A stretch of 7,110 nt of DNA from a virus (taxonomy: Duplodnaviria; Heunggongvirae; Uroviricota; Caudoviricetes): IMG/VR virus record IMGVR_UViG_2671180268_000013; one strand, written 5' to 3'. The translations under genes were made by a program, and so were the position numbers. Shown piece after piece: positions 1 through 5,367 of the stretch. How positions within the stretch are numbered: position 1 is the stretch's first letter; the number at the start of each line of letters is the position of its first letter. The notes beneath the pieces were generated by a model that ran no database searches, was not told where the DNA came from, and was given only the letters and a program-made list of their open reading frames with translations.

Positions 1-588
1 GAACAGGAGGGACAGCTGATAGAAACAGAAGCCACTGGAGCACCTCAAAAACACCATCATACACTAAATCAGTAAGTTGGCAGCATCACCGGGGGCGCAG
101 ACCCTGATTATGTTATCTGGGCGAAAGAAGTTCAGGGTATTAACCGTGCATGGACTTTCAGACACTGGAAAGGCACTGGAACGGTTGGCGTGATGGTGGC
201 GACAAACGATCCGGAACGCCCGGCCCCGGATGAAAGCGTGATTAACGCAGTCAGGGACCACATCCTTCCTCTGGCACCTGTTGCCGGAAGCGGATTGTAT
301 GTATTCGGTGCCACAGAAAAAGTCATCCCGATGACGATTGCATTATCGAAAGACACACCGCAGATCAGGACTGCAATAAAAGCAGAGCTGAATGCACTGA
401 TGTTACGGGATGGTGTGCCAGAGGGGCGTATGTATCTGTCCAGAATCAGTGAGGCCATCAGTTTGTCTGCTGGTGAAGTGGCCCACCGGTTAATCGTCCC
501 TTCATCGGATATTGACCTGGGGGAGACCGAGCTTCCGGTGCTCGGCGAGATCACCTGGCAGGCTTATGACCCGGCAAGGAGTAAATAA
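1..588 (+). pseudogene. Baseplate J/gp47-family protein (P2 gpJ / Mu gp47-like), 3' portion entering from upstream; frame interrupted by in-frame TAA at 73-75
   Basis: Frame 1 is open from the window edge but has TAA at 73-75. Translation continues in the same frame (VGSITGGADPDYVIWAKEVQGINRAW..., C-terminal layout resembling P2 gpJ) with no ATG/GTG/TTG between 76 and the GTG at 190. Frames 2 and 3 upstream are stop-rich or low-complexity. Stop at 586-588 overlaps the next gene start. A restart at GTG 190 would give only a 132-aa C-terminal fragment. Confidence 0.55.
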
Positions 589-1178
589 TGGATTCGTTAC
601 AGGATGATTATACAAAGCTGCTGTACGGACTGATGCCGCCGGGGCCTGCATGGTCAGATACCGACGGTGTACTTGACGGTCTGGCACCATCGCTTGTGCG
701 TGTTCACCAGCGGGCTGATGAACTGGTGATTGAAATCGATCCCGGTCAGTCCACAGAGCTGATTGAACGTTATGAAGAATTGTATGGTTTACCTGATTCC
801 TGTTCCCCTGTCGGAACCCAGACATTACGCCAGCGTCAGCAACGTCTTGAAGCAAAAGCCAATGTGGCTGGTGGCATAAATGAGCAGTTCTTCCTGGATC
901 AGCTTGAGGCGCTGGGATATACCGGCGTAACGATCGAACAGTTCCAGCACTTGGATGCAAGCCCCGATCCGGAATGGGGAGATCGCTGGCGTTATTTCTG
1001 GCGTGTGACGTTGCCGATGGATGCCGGTGCTCAGTGGCAGACATGCACGGACGCCTGCAACACACCGATCCGGACGTGGGGGGATACGGTTGCGGAGTGC
1101 GTGATTAATAAATTATGTCCGTCACACACCGTCGTTTTATTTTCCTATCCAGATGAGGATGAAGATGCACAGGATTGA
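588..1178 (+). CDS. Phage baseplate/tail protein, P2 gpI / Mu gp48-like (e14 YmfQ-like, DUF2313-type)
   Basis: 196-aa ORF. ATG at 588 overlaps the upstream stop (TAATG), with AAGGAG at 576-581 six nt upstream. Position after the J-like gene and before the tail fibre matches baseplate gene order. N-terminus MDSLQDDYTKLLYGL resembles the YmfQ family from memory. Confidence 0.8.
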   Translation: MDSLQDDYTKLLYGLMPPGPAWSDTDGVLDGLAPSLVRVHQRADELVIEIDPGQSTELIERYEELYGLPDSCSPVGTQTLRQRQQRLEAKANVAGGINEQFFLDQLEALGYTGVTIEQFQHLDASPDPEWGDRWRYFWRVTLPMDAGAQWQTCTDACNTPIRTWGDTVAECVINKLCPSHTVVLFSYPDEDEDAQD

Positions 1179-2205
1179 TACGCTGACTGCGGTAAAAGAT
1201 AAGTTTGGTCCGGGTAAGAACGGATTTACTGACGGAAATCTTCGCACAGGACGTCTTGCTACCTGGCTGAACAGTGCCATGTGGAATGCCATTCAGGAGG
1301 AAATCTGTGGTGTCATTGAGAAGGCCGGGATAGAACTGAATAAAGAAGAACACGACCAGCTATATAAGGCTATATTATTGCTGGTGGGCGGTGCAATTAA
1401 CGAAGAGGCATTGCTGATAAAAAATAACCTTTCGGATGTGGAAGACAGGGATGAGGCTGTTGAAAACCTCGGATTAAAACCCACGGTGGATAAGGCAAAA
1501 AATGCCGTTCAGCGTGATGGCGACACCATGACCGGAGAGCTGAAAATCCGTGGTGTTAATGCGCTGAGGATTTTCAACGAAGCTTTTGGCCTGATTTTTC
1601 GTCGTTCGGAAGAGTGCCTGCACCTTATTCCCACCAGTGAAGGTCAGGGGGAAAATGGCGATATTGGTCCCCTGCGCCCGTTCACCATTAATCTGCGGAC
1701 GGGTGAAATATCCATGTCGCATAAAGTGTCTGTTGGCGGTGGTTCGCAGGTCAATGGTGCGCTGGGTATCGGCGTTCAGAACGCCCTGGGGGGGAATTCA
1801 ATTGTTCTTGGTGATAATGACACCGGATTCAAACAGAATGGTGATGGCCTGCTGGATGTTTATGCCAATAGCGTGCATGTGTTGCGTTTTCAGAGTGGCA
1901 GTATCCAGAGTAATAAAGCTGTAAACGTTACAGGACGGGTAACACCGTCAGACTACGGAAACTTTGATGCCCGTTACCAGCAGCGAAATGGTGGCGTGCA
2001 GGATGTGCGGTATGGTTATGAAATGTATTACCCCCCCGGCAGTAACACCGTTTCGTGGACATTTCGCTCACCTTCGGGACACGGGCTGTCAGGGATATCG
2101 ATATCGGATACCGGCCGTAACTCAGCGGATAACGTCAACGGCGTGTATTACCGACCGCTGCAAAAACTGATTAATGGCACCTGGTATAACGTAGCGAGTA
2201 TTTAA
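1165..2205 (+). CDS. Tail fibre protein; e14 StfP-like N-terminal region joined to a P2 gpH-like C-terminal receptor-binding region
   Basis: ORF track gives 1153..2205. I prefer ATG 1165 (MHRIDTLTAVKDKFG..., the StfP-type N-terminus) with GAGG at 1155-1158 upstream. The C-terminal part carries motifs I recall from P2 gpH-type fibres (NAVQRDGDTMTG, GGNSIVLGDNDTGFKQNGDGLLDVYANS, ending INGTWYNVASI). Start overlaps the end of the upstream gene. Confidence 0.8.
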   Translation: MHRIDTLTAVKDKFGPGKNGFTDGNLRTGRLATWLNSAMWNAIQEEICGVIEKAGIELNKEEHDQLYKAILLLVGGAINEEALLIKNNLSDVEDRDEAVENLGLKPTVDKAKNAVQRDGDTMTGELKIRGVNALRIFNEAFGLIFRRSEECLHLIPTSEGQGENGDIGPLRPFTINLRTGEISMSHKVSVGGGSQVNGALGIGVQNALGGNSIVLGDNDTGFKQNGDGLLDVYANSVHVLRFQSGSIQSNKAVNVTGRVTPSDYGNFDARYQQRNGGVQDVRYGYEMYYPPGSNTVSWTFRSPSGHGLSGISISDTGRNSADNVNGVYYRPLQKLINGTWYNVASI

Positions 2206-2207
2206 CA

Positions 2208-2753
2208 ATGTTGCATTTAAAAAATATTACGGCAGGTAATCCGAAAACCGCGGAATAATATCAGCTGACAAAACAGTATGATGTCACCTGGCTTTTTTCG
2301 GAAGACGGCAAAAACTGGTATGAAGAACAGAAGAACTTTGCCAGTGACACCATAAAAATGGTTTACACCGGAGACGGGCGCGTGGTGTGGGTCGGTAAGG
2401 ATGTGACAGGCATTGAACCCCGTAACGCCAGTGTTATTGAAGTTCCTGATATTACCGCCAACCGCCGCATTACCGCGCCGGGTTACTGGTTTTACCGCAA
2501 TGATGAATTTGTCTTTGACTACAGACTCAAAGCGGAAGATGAGCGTGATGCCCTTCTGGCTCAGGTCAGTGCCCGGACAGGGGAATGGGAAGAAGACCTG
2601 CTGCTGGGGCTAATCAGCGACGAAGACCGGGAAAAACTGAAAGCGTACCGTATTTACGCGAAATCGCTGCAGGCGATGGATTTCAGCACCATCACTGATA
2701 AATCCTCATATAACGCCATTGAATGGTCCGTCTCTCCGGAAGGTTCTTCCTGA
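2208..2753 (+). pseudogene. Tail fibre assembly protein (P2 gpG / TfaE-like) with in-frame TAA at codon 17
   Basis: ATG at 2208 gives MLHLKNITAGNPKTAE, then TAA at 2256-2258, then the same frame continues YQLTKQYDVTWLFSEDGKNWYEEQKNF...VIEVPDITANRR. This is colinear with the P2 G / TfaE family, where Q (CAA) occupies the stop position. The first downstream ATG in frame is 2358, giving a 131-aa N-truncated product. Confidence 0.6.
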
Positions 2754-2776: not shown

Positions 2777-4045
2777 ATGTCTGTAGTGATATCAGGTGCG
2801 CTGACTGATGGCGCAGGCATCCCCATGTCCGGATGCCAGATTATTCTGAAATCCCGTGTAAACACCTCAGAAGTGGTGATGCGTACCAGGGCTGATGTAG
2901 TGACCGGAAATAACGGTGAATATTCGTTTGAGGCACAGGTCGGAAAATATTGCGTGTATCTGAAACGGGACTGGCGCGACGAGTACTGTGTTGGCGACAT
3001 TGCTGTATACGACGACTCAAAGCCCGGCACGCTGAATGACTTTCTGATTGCTCCTGATGAGGGCGACCTGAAACCGGATGTCGTCAAACGCTTTGAGGAA
3101 ATGGTGGCGCAGGCGCAGCAGAGCGCCGGGGCCGCAGCCGGAAACGCACAGCAGACGGCGCAGGATGTGGCGGCAGCCGCAGGTTATGCCCGCGCAGCAG
3201 AGCAGGCCAAAAATGACATTGATGCTGCGCTGACCGGCACTCTGAAAACGGCTAACCATCTGTCTGAAATCGCAGCAGCAGGCGAAAAGGCACAACAGAA
3301 GTCCCGGGATAATCTGGGGCTGAAAAGTGCGGCCACGATGGAAGCACAGAGCGACATTTACGACCGGACAAAAGGCCGTCTGGCGATACCCGGCGCATTC
3401 GGCTTTGGGTGTGCTTTTCTGCCTGAAGATGTTATCCGTTTTGACACTAAGAGTGATTTCCTGGCCTGGGTAAGGAATGCGCTGCCAGGTGAATATTCCG
3501 TTGCTGGCCCCTACGACATCATCATACCCGACACACGGTTTGAAGGGGTGCTCAGCATCCGGTGGACTGATGCACGCCCTGAGACAACAGAACCGAGGTA
3601 CAGAGCCAAATCCCTTACTTTTTACGGCATTAACGGCCCCATTTATCACACCCGCTACTGCTACTGGCCCATATCCAGACTGACTGGCTGGGTGAAAATA
3701 AATATAACCACAGAAGATATTATTTACAGAATCGTGGCGAGCTCTGTCTGCAACAGATGGGGAGACCCTGACATTGGCGGGCTGATTATTGCTGCGTACC
3801 AGGGAGAAGCTGACGGTGATAAAGTCATCAGACTTGTCAGGGGGCAGTCATACAGAGGCTCACGACTGGGACCGGTGGGGATTTCAGTGCCCAGTACTCC
3901 CACCGGAACGTATATAGCATCCCCACAATTTTTCATTACGGGATGTTCAGAGCATTCATTACCGGGGTCATATAGCGCCCTGTCCGGGGTGCCGGATGCT
4001 CATGTCTCTGGCGCAATGCCCGGGCTTTTTATTCGCACATCGTGA
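2777..4045 (+). CDS. Side tail fibre-like protein with lambda Stf-type N-terminal domain (Phage_fiber_N-like) and an unassigned C-terminal domain
   Basis: 422-aa ORF. The first ~100 aa (MSVVISGALTDGAGIPMSGCQIILKSR...VYDDSKPGTLNDFLIA) resemble the lambda Stf N-terminal domain. An Ala/Gln-rich stretch follows (about aa 110-200), then ~220 aa I cannot assign to a family. Confidence 0.75.
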   Translation: MSVVISGALTDGAGIPMSGCQIILKSRVNTSEVVMRTRADVVTGNNGEYSFEAQVGKYCVYLKRDWRDEYCVGDIAVYDDSKPGTLNDFLIAPDEGDLKPDVVKRFEEMVAQAQQSAGAAAGNAQQTAQDVAAAAGYARAAEQAKNDIDAALTGTLKTANHLSEIAAAGEKAQQKSRDNLGLKSAATMEAQSDIYDRTKGRLAIPGAFGFGCAFLPEDVIRFDTKSDFLAWVRNALPGEYSVAGPYDIIIPDTRFEGVLSIRWTDARPETTEPRYRAKSLTFYGINGPIYHTRYCYWPISRLTGWVKINITTEDIIYRIVASSVCNRWGDPDIGGLIIAAYQGEADGDKVIRLVRGQSYRGSRLGPVGISVPSTPTGTYIASPQFFITGCSEHSLPGSYSALSGVPDAHVSGAMPGLFIRTS

Positions 4046-4055
4046 GGAATGCACC

Positions 4056-4806
4056 GTGGAAATTAAAAAAATCATTAATCCCCGTTATACCGAAAGTGGC
4101 GCAGTAGACTGTGACGTTTTTTTTGACGACAGGGACCAGGCAGTCCCCTACACAGCCACCGCTGATGATGTCGCACCGACGGGTCAGCGAATCTGGCAGG
4201 AACTGCAAAGTGGCAAATGGGGTGAGATAGCCCCATTCACTGTGACACCAGAAATGCTGGAAGCGGCCAGAGAGGCCAGACGTCAGGAAATTGAAGCATG
4301 GCGCACAGAACAGGAGGCGAAGCCGTTCACGTTTGAATGGAANNNNNNNNNNNNNNNNNNNNNNNNNNNNNNNNNNNNNNNNNNNNNNNNNNNNNNNNNN
4401 NNNNNNNNNNNNNNNNNNNNNNNNNNNNNNNNNNNNNNNNNNNNNNNNNNNNNNNNNNNNNNNNNNNNNNNNNNNNNNNNNNNNNNNNNNNNNNNNNNNN
4501 NNNNNNNNNNNNNNNNNNNNNNNNNNNNNNNNNNNNNNNNNNNNNNNNNNNNNNNNNNNNNNNNNNNNNNNNNNNNNNNNNNNNNNNNNNNNNNNNNNNN
4601 NNNNNNNNNNNNNNNNNNNNNNNNNNNNNGATGCCGATAATCAGCAGGTGAAACTGTCGATGCCGGAACTGGAAGAACTGGCGGCAGCAATGGTGCAGGC
4701 GCAGGTCGATCGCAACGATGAGATTTATCGCCGTCAGCGTGAAATGAAAGAGGAGCTGAGTGGTCTGGAGGATTTGGGAACAATTAGAGCGTTTGATGTT
4801 ACGTAA
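4056..4806 (+). CDS. Putative tail fibre assembly/chaperone-like protein, interrupted by assembly gap (may be one gene or two)
   Basis: GTG at 4056 with GAGG at 4044-4047, immediately after the fibre stop; VEIKKIINPRYTESGAVDCDV... runs into the N run at 4343. After the gap an open frame (DADNQQVKLSMPELEEL...GTIRAFDVT) ends with TAA at 4804-4806. Gap length and frame relationship are unknown, so continuity is assumed. Family assignment is tentative. Confidence 0.4.
4343..4629. other. Assembly gap (287 N)
   Basis: Uninterrupted run of n from 4343 to 4629. All ORFs in the track that translate as X across this region are artefacts. Confidence 0.99.
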
Positions 4807-4852: not shown

Positions 4853-4886
4853 AAAAGCCTCTGACTTCATAATCAGAGGCTTTTTT
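4853..4886. terminator. Rho-independent terminator hairpin, potentially bidirectional
   Basis: AAAAGCCTCTGA (4853-4864), loop CTTCATAA, TCAGAGGCTTTT (4873-4884), then T-run to 4886 on the plus strand. The reverse strand reads stem then TTTTCT. It sits between the last tail-module gene and the ssrA 3' end. Confidence 0.6.
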
Positions 4887-5004
4887 GAAATGCACGTGCA
4901 TTTTGCGTGTATATTTTTGTCTTTTTCTGGTCCGCTTACTGTCTGGTCAGTGTCCGTAAGTGACTGTTTTTATAGTCTCTGTCCGGTTGCAGTCCTGTCA
5001 AAAG

Positions 5005-5367
5005 TGGTGGAGCTGGCGGGAGTTGAACCCGCGTCCGAAATTCCTACATCCTCGGTACTACATGCTTAGTCAGTCTTTACATTCGCTTGCCAGCTGCGGA
5101 CGGACACGCCACTAACAAACTAGCCTGATTAAGTTTTAACGCTTCAACCCCAGGCAGGGCTTCCACGCGATCTCTTTTGGGTTTGACCTCTCTTGATCCC
5201 CGTCCTAAGAGCGGAGGCTAGGGAGAGAGGGCTCTAAGCAGGTTATTAAGCTGCTAAAGCGTAGTTTTCGTCGTTTGCGACTATTTTTTGCGGCTTTTTA
5301 CGAGGCCAACCGCCCCTCGGCATGCACCTTGGGTTTCGCAAATCCCGTCGAATCCAGAATCAGCCCC
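5005..5367 (-). ncRNA. ssrA: tmRNA (SsrA, transfer-messenger RNA), 363 nt
   Basis: Reverse complement begins GGGGCTGATTCTGGATTCGACGGGATTTGCG and ends GGTTCAACTCCCGCCAGCTCCACCA. The tag reading frame at 5246-5278 (minus) encodes ANDENYALAA plus stop. It lies downstream of smpB on the same strand, as in E. coli. Confidence 0.97.

What the first reader, a model, noticed from the sequence alone, without database searches (positions are those of the whole stretch)
2777..4045. Second tail fibre with lambda Stf-type N-terminus and an unassigned ~220-aa C-terminal domain
The N-terminal ~100 aa match the conserved lambda Stf anchoring domain, followed by an Ala/Gln-rich linker (AQAQQSAGAAAGNAQQTAQDVAAAAGYARAAEQAKND...). 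The C-terminal half (from about GAFGFGCAFLPEDVIRFDTKSDF to the end, Cys/Trp/Tyr-containing) matches no fibre tip family I recognise. Fibre C-termini set receptor specificity, so this is the most likely place for a new binding domain. At 422 aa the protein is short for an Stf, so it may also be a truncated or recombinant fibre.
Basis: partly seen in the sequence, partly recalled or inferred. Interest (0 to 1): 0.55.

Follow-up and report, generated by a model that had tools for sequence, protein, structure and literature searches.

The report
Prophage tail fibre with uncharacterised tip
This is an intact copy of the second tail fibre of a phiP27-type prophage that has decayed in Shigella sonnei; the gene is ordinary and already catalogued, but its last ~110 residues form a receptor-binding tip that resembles no solved structure.

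Summary
The ORF at 2777-4045 (+) is real and encodes 422 aa. Residues 1-131 match Pfam PF08400, the lambda Stf-type anchor, at E 2e-63. An Ala/Gln-rich helical shaft follows.

Residues ~160-422 form a C-terminal module with no Pfam or PDB sequence match. It is still a recurrent family: PHROG 2636 at E 8e-205, and about 108 cluster representatives among 1.84 billion proteins. It always sits at the C-terminus, behind different anchors.

The gene is not a truncated fragment. It aligns to its last residue with phiP27 L56 and other homologues. It is short only because the shaft lacks 49 residues, exactly seven heptads. The same 422-aa protein is on 674 contigs named Shigella sonnei.

In every related locus with enough downstream DNA, a conserved DUF4376 gene follows within 0-53 nt (mostly 10-15). 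This is the probable fibre chaperone.

The host prophage is defective: IS1 interrupts the baseplate J gene, and the first fibre's assembly gene has a nonsense codon.

Verdict: an ordinary modular phage receptor-binding fibre, already annotated. Its tip is structurally uncharacterised and its receptor is unknown.

The parts
2777..4045 (+). Second tail fibre gene, 422 aa plus stop (phiP27 L56 / PHROG 2636 family)
   Evidence: ORF. PHROG 2636 at E 7.8e-205. 40% identity over 100% of its length to phiP27 L56. The exact protein is on 674 contigs named Shigella sonnei.
2777..3169 (+). Stf-type N-terminal anchor. Residues 1-131 match PF08400; residues 1-92 correspond to the Ig-like collar domain of lambda gpStf.
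   Evidence: PF08400 at E 2.4e-63. 9e7m lambda Stf residues 1-92 at E 4.6e-17, and XM1 collar spike 7kjk at E 1.1e-6. The roles of these domains are described in PMC12617516 and PMC10457771.
3053..3322 (+). Flexible linker plus short Ala/Gln-rich helical shaft (residues ~93-182), ending in the conserved junction motif SRDNLGLK
   Evidence: Sequence. AF2 predicts a helix for fibre residues 162-179. The shaft is 49 residues (7 heptads) shorter than in P0006 and the 471-aa alleles. The coiled coil itself is inferred by analogy with lambda gpStf.
3323..3712 (+). Tip subdomain A (residues ~183-312), an alpha/beta domain that is repeated 2-3 times in tandem in longer family members
3713..4042 (+). 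Tip subdomain B (residues ~313-422), the terminal small beta-rich domain with conserved GGLILAAYQG, GSRL, LPGxYxALSG and GLFxR motifs and variable loops
4056..4806 (+). Downstream partner gene (DUF4376 protein, probable fibre chaperone). It starts at GTG 4056 behind GAGGAA. A run of 287 N at 4343-4629 interrupts the reading.
   Evidence: The L001 and L008 orthologue is 187 aa and matches PF14301 DUF4376 at E 8e-17. It is 75% identical to phiP27 L57 and 37% to Av-05 gp077. It follows the tip in every locus with enough downstream DNA. The N-run replaces 100 nt of CP022457.1.
4857..4887 (+). Terminator-like hairpin (GCCTCTGA...TCAGAGGC followed by a T-run) that closes the fibre operon
   Evidence: Read directly from the sequence. 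The terminator scan tool was not run.
1153..2205 (+). First tail fibre gene (350 aa) of the same prophage, given as context
   Evidence: PHROG 6859 at E 5.7e-209. It corresponds to phiP27 L54.
2208..2753 (+). Tail fibre assembly gene (Caudo_TAP) for fibre 1. It is inactivated by a CAA to TAA nonsense codon at 2256-2258.
   Evidence: PF02413 covers only the C-terminal 131 aa. Alignment to the intact E. coli copy shows a single C to T change at 2256.

Best explanation
The gene encodes the accessory ('second') receptor-binding fibre of a phiP27-type temperate myovirus.

Inferred mechanism:
- Three chains form one fibre.
- The N-terminal Ig-like Stf-type domains (residues 1-92) dock as a ring on the tail. 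Whether they dock at the neck or at the baseplate is not settled.
- A flexible linker and a short Ala/Gln coiled coil project the tip.
- The tip has a knob-like subdomain A and a terminal small beta-rich subdomain B. The variable loops of B contact a still unknown cell-surface receptor.
- The DUF4376 protein encoded immediately downstream acts as the fibre's chaperone or temporary cap during trimerisation.
- Tip plus partner travel together as a host-range cassette that recombines onto different anchors at the conserved SRDNLGLKSAAT...GAFGFG junction.

In this particular genome (Shigella sonnei) the ORF is intact, but the prophage cannot build a tail. The gene is therefore most likely an unexpressed or functionless relic.

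Shown here: domain composition, family membership, synteny with the partner, mosaicism, prophage decay, and the lack of structural relatives for subdomain B.

Inferred: trimer formation, coiled coil, receptor binding, chaperone role, and attachment site.
For: - Anchor: PF08400 at E 2.4e-63; lambda Stf N-domain and XM1 collar spike in PDB; their docking roles are described in the literature.
- Family: PHROG 2636 at E 7.8e-205; full-length 40% identity to phiP27 L56, with the same gene order of fibre 1, Tfa, fibre 2, L57.
- Modularity: the tip is always C-terminal in about 108 cluster representatives, behind PF08400 or PF12571 anchors or in Vequintavirinae fibres. Tips about 98% identical occur behind MSVVISG, MAVKISG and MPQLKG anchors.
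- Partner: the DUF4376 gene is present 0-53 nt downstream (mostly 10-15) in all loci with enough downstream DNA, including tips only 24-43% identical.
- Partner function: DUF4376 proteins are experimentally required fibre chaperones in Alteromonas phage V22 and Campylobacter CJIE1.
- Variability: the tip is more divergent than the partner or the anchor. dN/dS in the tip is about 0.4-2.3, against 0.06-0.40 in the N-terminal part.
- Intactness: the 49-residue (7-heptad) shaft difference is in frame, and the 422-aa allele is recurrent.
- Decay of the prophage: an IS1 end lies at window 1-91 inside the baseplate J gene, and the Tfa gene has a nonsense codon.
Against: - No member of this tip family has a demonstrated receptor or a solved structure, so 'receptor-binding' rests on position, variability and analogy.
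- The AF2 models are monomers. A trimeric context could change the fold or the domain boundaries.
- dN/dS near 1 in the tip among close copies fits relaxed constraint in decaying prophages as well as it fits diversifying selection, and the substitution counts are small.
- Many sister copies are frameshifted.
- The partner gene cannot be read completely in the window because of the N-run.
- The attachment site on a Mu-type contractile tail is unknown. phiP27 neck proteins gave no PDB sequence match.
Confidence: 0.75

Rival explanations
1. The ORF is a degraded or truncated remnant of a longer Stf-type fibre gene, so the odd C-terminus is out-of-context or decayed sequence.
For: The protein is shorter than lambda Stf and than phiP27 L56 (490 aa). 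The prophage around it is decaying. Many sister copies carry frameshifts.
Against: It aligns from residue 1 to the last residue with L56 and with family members, including the terminal GLFxR motif. PHROG 2636 is matched up to position 567 of 568. The only length difference is a clean in-frame 49-residue (7-heptad) gap in the shaft. The 422-aa allele is the commonest intact form (19 loci) and occurs at 95-98% DNA identity in 10 complete E. coli genomes.
Confidence: 0.04
2. The downstream DUF4376 protein, not the fibre's own C-terminus, is the real adhesin, as gp38 is at the tip of T2-type fibres. On this reading the fibre's C-terminal module is mainly an adaptor that holds it.
For: PHROG 1141 labels the partner 'tail fiber protein'. 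The Alteromonas study proposes that DUF4376 chaperones can stay on the fibre as transient caps. TfaMu is reported to remain bound to the Mu fibre. Synteny with the tip is strict.
Against: The partner is much more conserved than the tip across the family: 46-76% (N-terminal part) and 35-78% (C-terminal part), against 24-60% for the tip. That is the opposite of what is expected for the specificity determinant.
Confidence: 0.12
3. The terminal subdomain is an assembly-only element, an intramolecular-chaperone-like or self-cleaving module, or an enzyme, rather than a receptor-binding surface.
For: Several motifs are strongly conserved and Gly-rich (GGLILAAYQG, GSRL, LPGxYxALSG, GLFxR). This looks more like a structural core or an active site than a variable binding face. 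There is no structural analogue to argue otherwise.
Against: There is no Pfam hit to peptidase S74 or to any enzyme family, for the window protein or for 41 family members. A separate chaperone gene is always present. Variable loops and insertion hot spots lie between the conserved motifs. The domain is retained in the annotated full-length proteins.
Confidence: 0.07

Closest known systems
Enterobacteria phage phiP27 L56 (NP_543108, 'tail fiber protein') with L57
   Same: The N-terminal anchor, Ala/Gln shaft, two-part tip and terminal motifs are the same. The gene order is the same: fibre 1, Tfa, fibre 2, DUF4376 gene at the right end of a Mu-type tail module.
   Different: Identity is only 40% overall and about 33% in the tip. 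L56 is 490 aa, with a longer shaft and insertions in the tip. Neither protein has been characterised experimentally.
Lambda (Ur-lambda) side tail fibre gpStf
   Same: The N-terminal Ig-like collar domain is homologous (46% identity over about 110 residues; PF08400). A flexible linker and a helical shaft follow.
   Different: The lambda tip is T4 gp37-like and binds OmpC, and its chaperone is Tfa of the Caudo_TAP family. Here the tip is unrelated and the chaperone is a DUF4376 protein. Lambda is a siphovirus whose collar sits at the gpV-gpM junction. This fibre belongs to a contractile Mu-type tail.
Vibrio myovirus XM1 collar spike gp40 (PDB 7kjk)
   Same: It has a related N-terminal domain followed by an Ala/Gln-rich helical region (E 1.1e-6 over residues 1-198). 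It is part of a contractile-tailed virion, where six trimers bind the neck.
   Different: gp40 is 839 aa with a different distal part. The window's Gp48-like baseplate protein (588-1178) is closest in PDB to a chain named 'Baseplate protein gp48' (9ki1), taken here to be from phage Mu, not to an XM1 chain. No homology was found between phiP27 and XM1 neck proteins.
DUF4376-chaperone-dependent fibres (Alteromonas V22 gp26/gp27 and A5 gp8/gp9; Campylobacter CJIE1 H-fibre)
   Same: A fibre gene is followed directly by a DUF4376 gene. The cassette is shared between unrelated phage morphotypes, and knob duplications occur in the fibre.
   Different: Sequence relatedness of those fibre tips to this one was not tested. 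The anchors are different.
Knob-type domains of phage fibres and receptor-binding proteins (phi812 RBP 9euf, phage K gp144 5m9f, T4 gp34 5nxh, R2 pyocin 6cl6, Mu S 8ju3)

Membership tests
phiP27 L56-type second fibre (PHROG 2636) | Full-length sequence homology, including the C-terminal module | tested here: met
   PHROG 2636 at E 7.8e-205, matching to profile position 567 of 568. tblastn to L56 gives 100% coverage at 40% identity. Alignment.
phiP27 L56-type second fibre (PHROG 2636) | Position after fibre 1 and Tfa, and before a DUF4376 gene, at the end of a Mu-type baseplate module | tested here: met
   The window has Baseplate_J, Mu Gp48, fibre 1, Caudo_TAP, this gene, then DUF4376. phiP27 has the same order.
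Lambda Stf-type side tail fibre | N-terminal PF08400 collar or anchor domain | tested here: met
   E 2.4e-63 against a cut-off of 26.6 bits. 9e7m at E 4.6e-17.
Lambda Stf-type side tail fibre | T4 gp37-like distal receptor-binding tip | tested here: not met
   No Pfam or PDB sequence match for residues 160-422, either alone or as a profile. The tblastn matches to lambda-like Stf proteins listed cover only residues 1-110.
Lambda Stf-type side tail fibre | Downstream Tfa chaperone of the Caudo_TAP family (PF02413) | tested here: not met
   The downstream gene is DUF4376 PF14301. The Caudo_TAP gene in the window precedes this fibre and belongs to fibre 1.
DUF4376-chaperoned tail fibres | A DUF4376 gene immediately downstream of the fibre gene | tested here: met
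   Present 0-53 nt (mostly 10-15) after the tip in all loci with enough downstream DNA. PF14301 at E 8e-17, 4e-18 and 8e-12 in three lineages.
DUF4376-chaperoned tail fibres | The fibre needs the partner for folding or activity | not testable with these tools
   This needs co-expression experiments. It is known for V22 and CJIE1.
Trimeric knob-domain fibres (phage K gp144 / R-pyocin type) | Fold similarity of tip domains to solved knob domains | tested here: inconclusive
Self-cleaving intramolecular chaperone tips (peptidase S74) | S74 domain at the C-terminus | tested here: not met
   No such Pfam hit in the window protein or in 41 family members.

The most novel reading that the evidence does not exclude
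The terminal ~110 residues are a receptor-binding fold not yet represented among solved structures. With its conserved DUF4376 cap it forms a portable host-range cassette in Enterobacterales phages. Because the anchor is of the lambda Stf / XM1 collar-spike type, phiP27-type myoviruses may carry this fibre at the neck rather than on the baseplate.
Probability: 0.3. Interest if true: 0.45.

Novelty: new member of a known kind. Interest (0 to 1): 0.25.

Why it matters
Fibre tips decide which bacteria a phage or an engineered tailocin can attack. This tip family is spread through Shigella, E. coli, Salmonella and Yersinia prophages and some lytic Vequintavirinae. It always travels with its own chaperone, and it has neither a known receptor nor a solved structure. 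A compact 260-residue tip plus a 187-residue partner would be a convenient cassette for retargeting lambda-, P2- or pyocin-type scaffolds. In this particular genome it is only a relic in a dead prophage, so its biological importance there is small.

Tried and rejected
- Truncation or degradation: rejected on end-to-end alignment and the recurrent 422-aa allele.
- Internal duplication (subdomain A similar to B): hhalign probability 0.5%, rejected.
- Co-variation of the partner's N-terminus with the tip, as a sign of specific recognition: the correlations are positive but not corrected for phylogeny, and the partner is simply more conserved throughout. No conclusion was drawn.
- Placing the anchor by homology of neck or baseplate proteins to solved virions: the Gp48-like baseplate protein matches a chain named 'Baseplate protein gp48' (9ki1), taken here to be phage Mu. 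phiP27 L42 and L43 match nothing. Unresolved.
- Literature on phiP27, Av-05 and Shigella prophage fibres: no functional study of this tip was found.
- The ncbifam scan failed on a coordinate error and was not repeated.
It was repeated with 7 sequences.

Full report
**What is at the coordinates**

The window holds a single ORF at 2777..4045 on the + strand, with an ATG start and 422 codons.

- Residues 1-131 match Pfam PF08400, 'Prophage tail fibre N-terminal', at E 2.4e-63.
- Residues 1-92 match the solved N-domain of lambda Stf (9e7m) at E 4.6e-17. More weakly, residues 1-198 match the collar spike gp40 of Vibrio myovirus XM1 (7kjk) at E 1.1e-6.
- An Ala/Gln-rich segment follows. AlphaFold2 predicts a helix for residues 162-179.
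- The remaining residues have no Pfam family and no sequence relative in the PDB. This holds for the single sequence and for a 41-sequence profile.

**Genomic setting**

The upstream genes are, in order:
- a Baseplate_J C-terminal fragment;
- a Mu Gp48-like (YmfQ) protein;
- a first tail fibre (1153-2205, PHROG 6859);
- a Caudo_TAP assembly gene.

Downstream lie a DUF4376 gene, a hairpin terminator, the tmRNA gene ssrA (5005-5367, minus strand), smpB and the ratA/ratB region. This is the right end of a phiP27-type prophage inserted at ssrA. Phage phiP27 has the same order: L54 fibre, L55 assembly protein, L56 fibre, L57.

The window is 100% identical to CP022457.1 on both sides of a run of 287 N. 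The exact protein is present on 674 contigs named Shigella sonnei.

The prophage is defective:
- Window 1-91 is the end of an IS1 that splits the baseplate J gene.
- The fibre-1 assembly gene has a CAA to TAA nonsense codon at 2256-2258. This is one of only four differences from the intact E. coli copy across the 650 nt aligned.
- A further IS1 lies just downstream of the tape measure gene.

**Is it a fragment?**

No. The protein aligns from its first to its last residue with phiP27 L56 (40% identity, 100% coverage) and with other family members, through the terminal GLFxR motif. PHROG 2636 is matched to position 567 of 568.

The short length has one cause. The Ala/Gln shaft lacks 49 residues that are present in P0006 and in the 468-474-aa alleles. 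Forty-nine residues is exactly seven heptads, so a coiled-coil register would be preserved. That last point is my inference.

Among the loci read, the 422-aa form is the commonest intact allele, at 19 loci. It also occurs at 95-98% DNA identity in 10 of 5426 complete E. coli genomes.

**What the C-terminal module is**

Residues ~160-422 define a modest but real family. There are 108 cluster representatives at E<=0.001 among 1.84 billion proteins. The module is always at the C-terminus of proteins of 240-1034 aa.

The N-terminal parts of these proteins differ:
- PF08400 (Stf-type);
- PF12571 (P2 gpH-type);
- fibres of lytic Vequintavirinae such as Av-05.

Tips about 98% identical sit behind three different PF08400 variants, starting MSVVISG, MAVKISG and MPQLKG. 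Recombination at the conserved junction (SRDNLGLKSAAT...DIYDRT.GRLA.PGAFGFG) is therefore recent and frequent.

The module has two parts:
- **Subdomain A (about residues 183-312)** is repeated two or three times in tandem in longer relatives.
- **Subdomain B (about residues 313-422)** is always last.

The two show no detectable sequence relationship to each other (hhalign probability 0.5%).

In genomes sampled one per species, the module was found in E. coli, Shigella flexneri (4-5 copies per genome), Salmonella enterica and Yersinia similis. An Actinobacillus phage also carries it.

**Structure**

An AF2 monomer model of residues 160-422, built on a 41-sequence alignment, is confident: pLDDT 89.6, pTM 0.71.
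- Foldseek against the PDB finds nothing at E<=0.001. The best hit is the C-terminal domains of phage K gp144, at E 7.6e-3.

One caveat applies. These are monomer models of what is almost certainly a trimer.

**The partner gene**

A gene starts at GTG 4056, behind a GAGGAA Shine-Dalgarno sequence. In the window it is interrupted by the N-run. In CP022457.1 and in E. coli FDAARGOS_944 it is 187 aa and contains DUF4376 (PF14301, E 8e-17). It is 75% identical to phiP27 L57 and 37% identical to Av-05 gp077, which likewise follows the Av-05 fibre that carries this tip.

In all IMG/VR and reference loci with enough DNA downstream of the tip, a homologue starts 0-53 nt after the fibre's stop, mostly 10-15 nt. 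This includes loci whose tips are only 24-43% identical.

The partner is clearly more conserved than the tip:

| Region compared | Identity to the window copy in distant family members |
|---|---|
| Partner, N-terminal part (residues 1-70) | 46-76% |
| Partner, C-terminal part (residues 71-188) | 35-78% |
| Tip subdomain A | 29-60% |
| Tip subdomain B | 24-43% |

DUF4376 proteins are experimentally required chaperones for the fibres of Alteromonas phage V22 and the Campylobacter CJIE1 prophage. They have been proposed to act as transient caps.

**How it most likely works**

By homology, the N-domain is the ring-forming Ig-like anchor.
- In Ur-lambda, twelve copies form a collar at the gpV-gpM junction. 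Each set of three is tied by about 10-residue linkers to one trimeric coiled coil.
- In XM1, six trimers bind the neck proteins.

The shaft projects the tip. Variable loops and insertion hot spots in subdomains A and B would contact the receptor, and the DUF4376 protein would assist trimer folding.

Among close copies, dN/dS is 0.06-0.40 in the N-terminal part and about 0.4-2.3 in the tip. The substitution counts are small, and many of these prophages are decaying. This fits diversifying selection and relaxed constraint equally well.

It is open whether the anchor sits at the neck or the baseplate of a Mu-type contractile tail. The Gp48-like baseplate protein is closest to a PDB chain named 'Baseplate protein gp48' (9ki1), which I take to be from phage Mu, and the neck proteins of phiP27 match nothing solved.

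**Comparison and verdict**

The protein is a member of the phiP27 L56 / PHROG 2636 family. It shares only the anchor with lambda Stf. It fails the other two lambda features: a gp37-like tip and a Caudo_TAP chaperone.

It works like other chaperone-dependent modular fibres. It is already annotated ('prophage tail fibre N-terminal domain-containing protein') and widespread, so the gene is not new.

What remains open is the receptor, the fold of the terminal domain in a trimer, and the attachment site. Interest is low to moderate.

Noticed in passing
window 4343-4629: A run of 287 N lies inside the DUF4376 partner gene. In CP022457.1, which is otherwise 100% identical, the corresponding stretch is only 100 nt. 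The N-run is therefore not length-preserving and breaks the reading frame artificially (4056 and 4630 are in different frames).
   Followed up: yes
window 2256-2258 (gene 2208-2753): The fibre-1 assembly gene (Caudo_TAP) carries a CAA to TAA nonsense codon at codon 17. This is one of only four differences from the intact E. coli FDAARGOS_944 copy over the 650 nt aligned (2150-2800).
   Followed up: yes
window 1-91: These bases are the terminal part of an IS1 copy, identical to other IS1 copies in the same genomes. The IS1 is inserted in the baseplate J gene, so only the C-terminal part of that gene (190-588) remains in the window.
   Followed up: partly
window 1898-1933 (first fibre gene 1153-2205): Relative to E. 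coli FDAARGOS_944, the first fibre gene lacks about 168 nt (350 aa against 402 aa). The deletion appears to be in frame.
   Followed up: partly
window 5005-5367 (minus strand), junction near 5042: This is the tmRNA gene ssrA, with tag ANDENYALAA. Its 3' end abuts the prophage. In other S. sonnei genomes (CP032523, CP044191) similarity to the window stops at about 5042, and a second element carrying an integrase follows. The ssrA 3' end therefore serves as a tandem integration site.
   Followed up: partly
loci L046-L067, L093-L098 (IMG/VR, S. flexneri and E. coli genomes): Many near-identical copies of this fibre gene are frameshifted, often near tip residue 144. S. flexneri SFBU1023 and E. coli ECMA0423 carry 4-5 copies each. 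This points to several decaying phiP27- or SfV-like prophages per genome.
   Followed up: partly
proteins P0047, P0048, P0051, P0050, P0056; L003 5712-6482: Subdomain A of the tip occurs as 2-3 tandem copies in longer fibres. It also occurs in the next Av-05 fibre gene (Av05_0078), without subdomain B. This suggests A is a reusable shaft or knob unit.
   Followed up: no
window 4857-4887: A GC-rich inverted repeat (GCCTCTGA / TCAGAGGC) followed by a T-run lies after the partner gene. It looks like the intrinsic terminator of the late operon.
   Followed up: no
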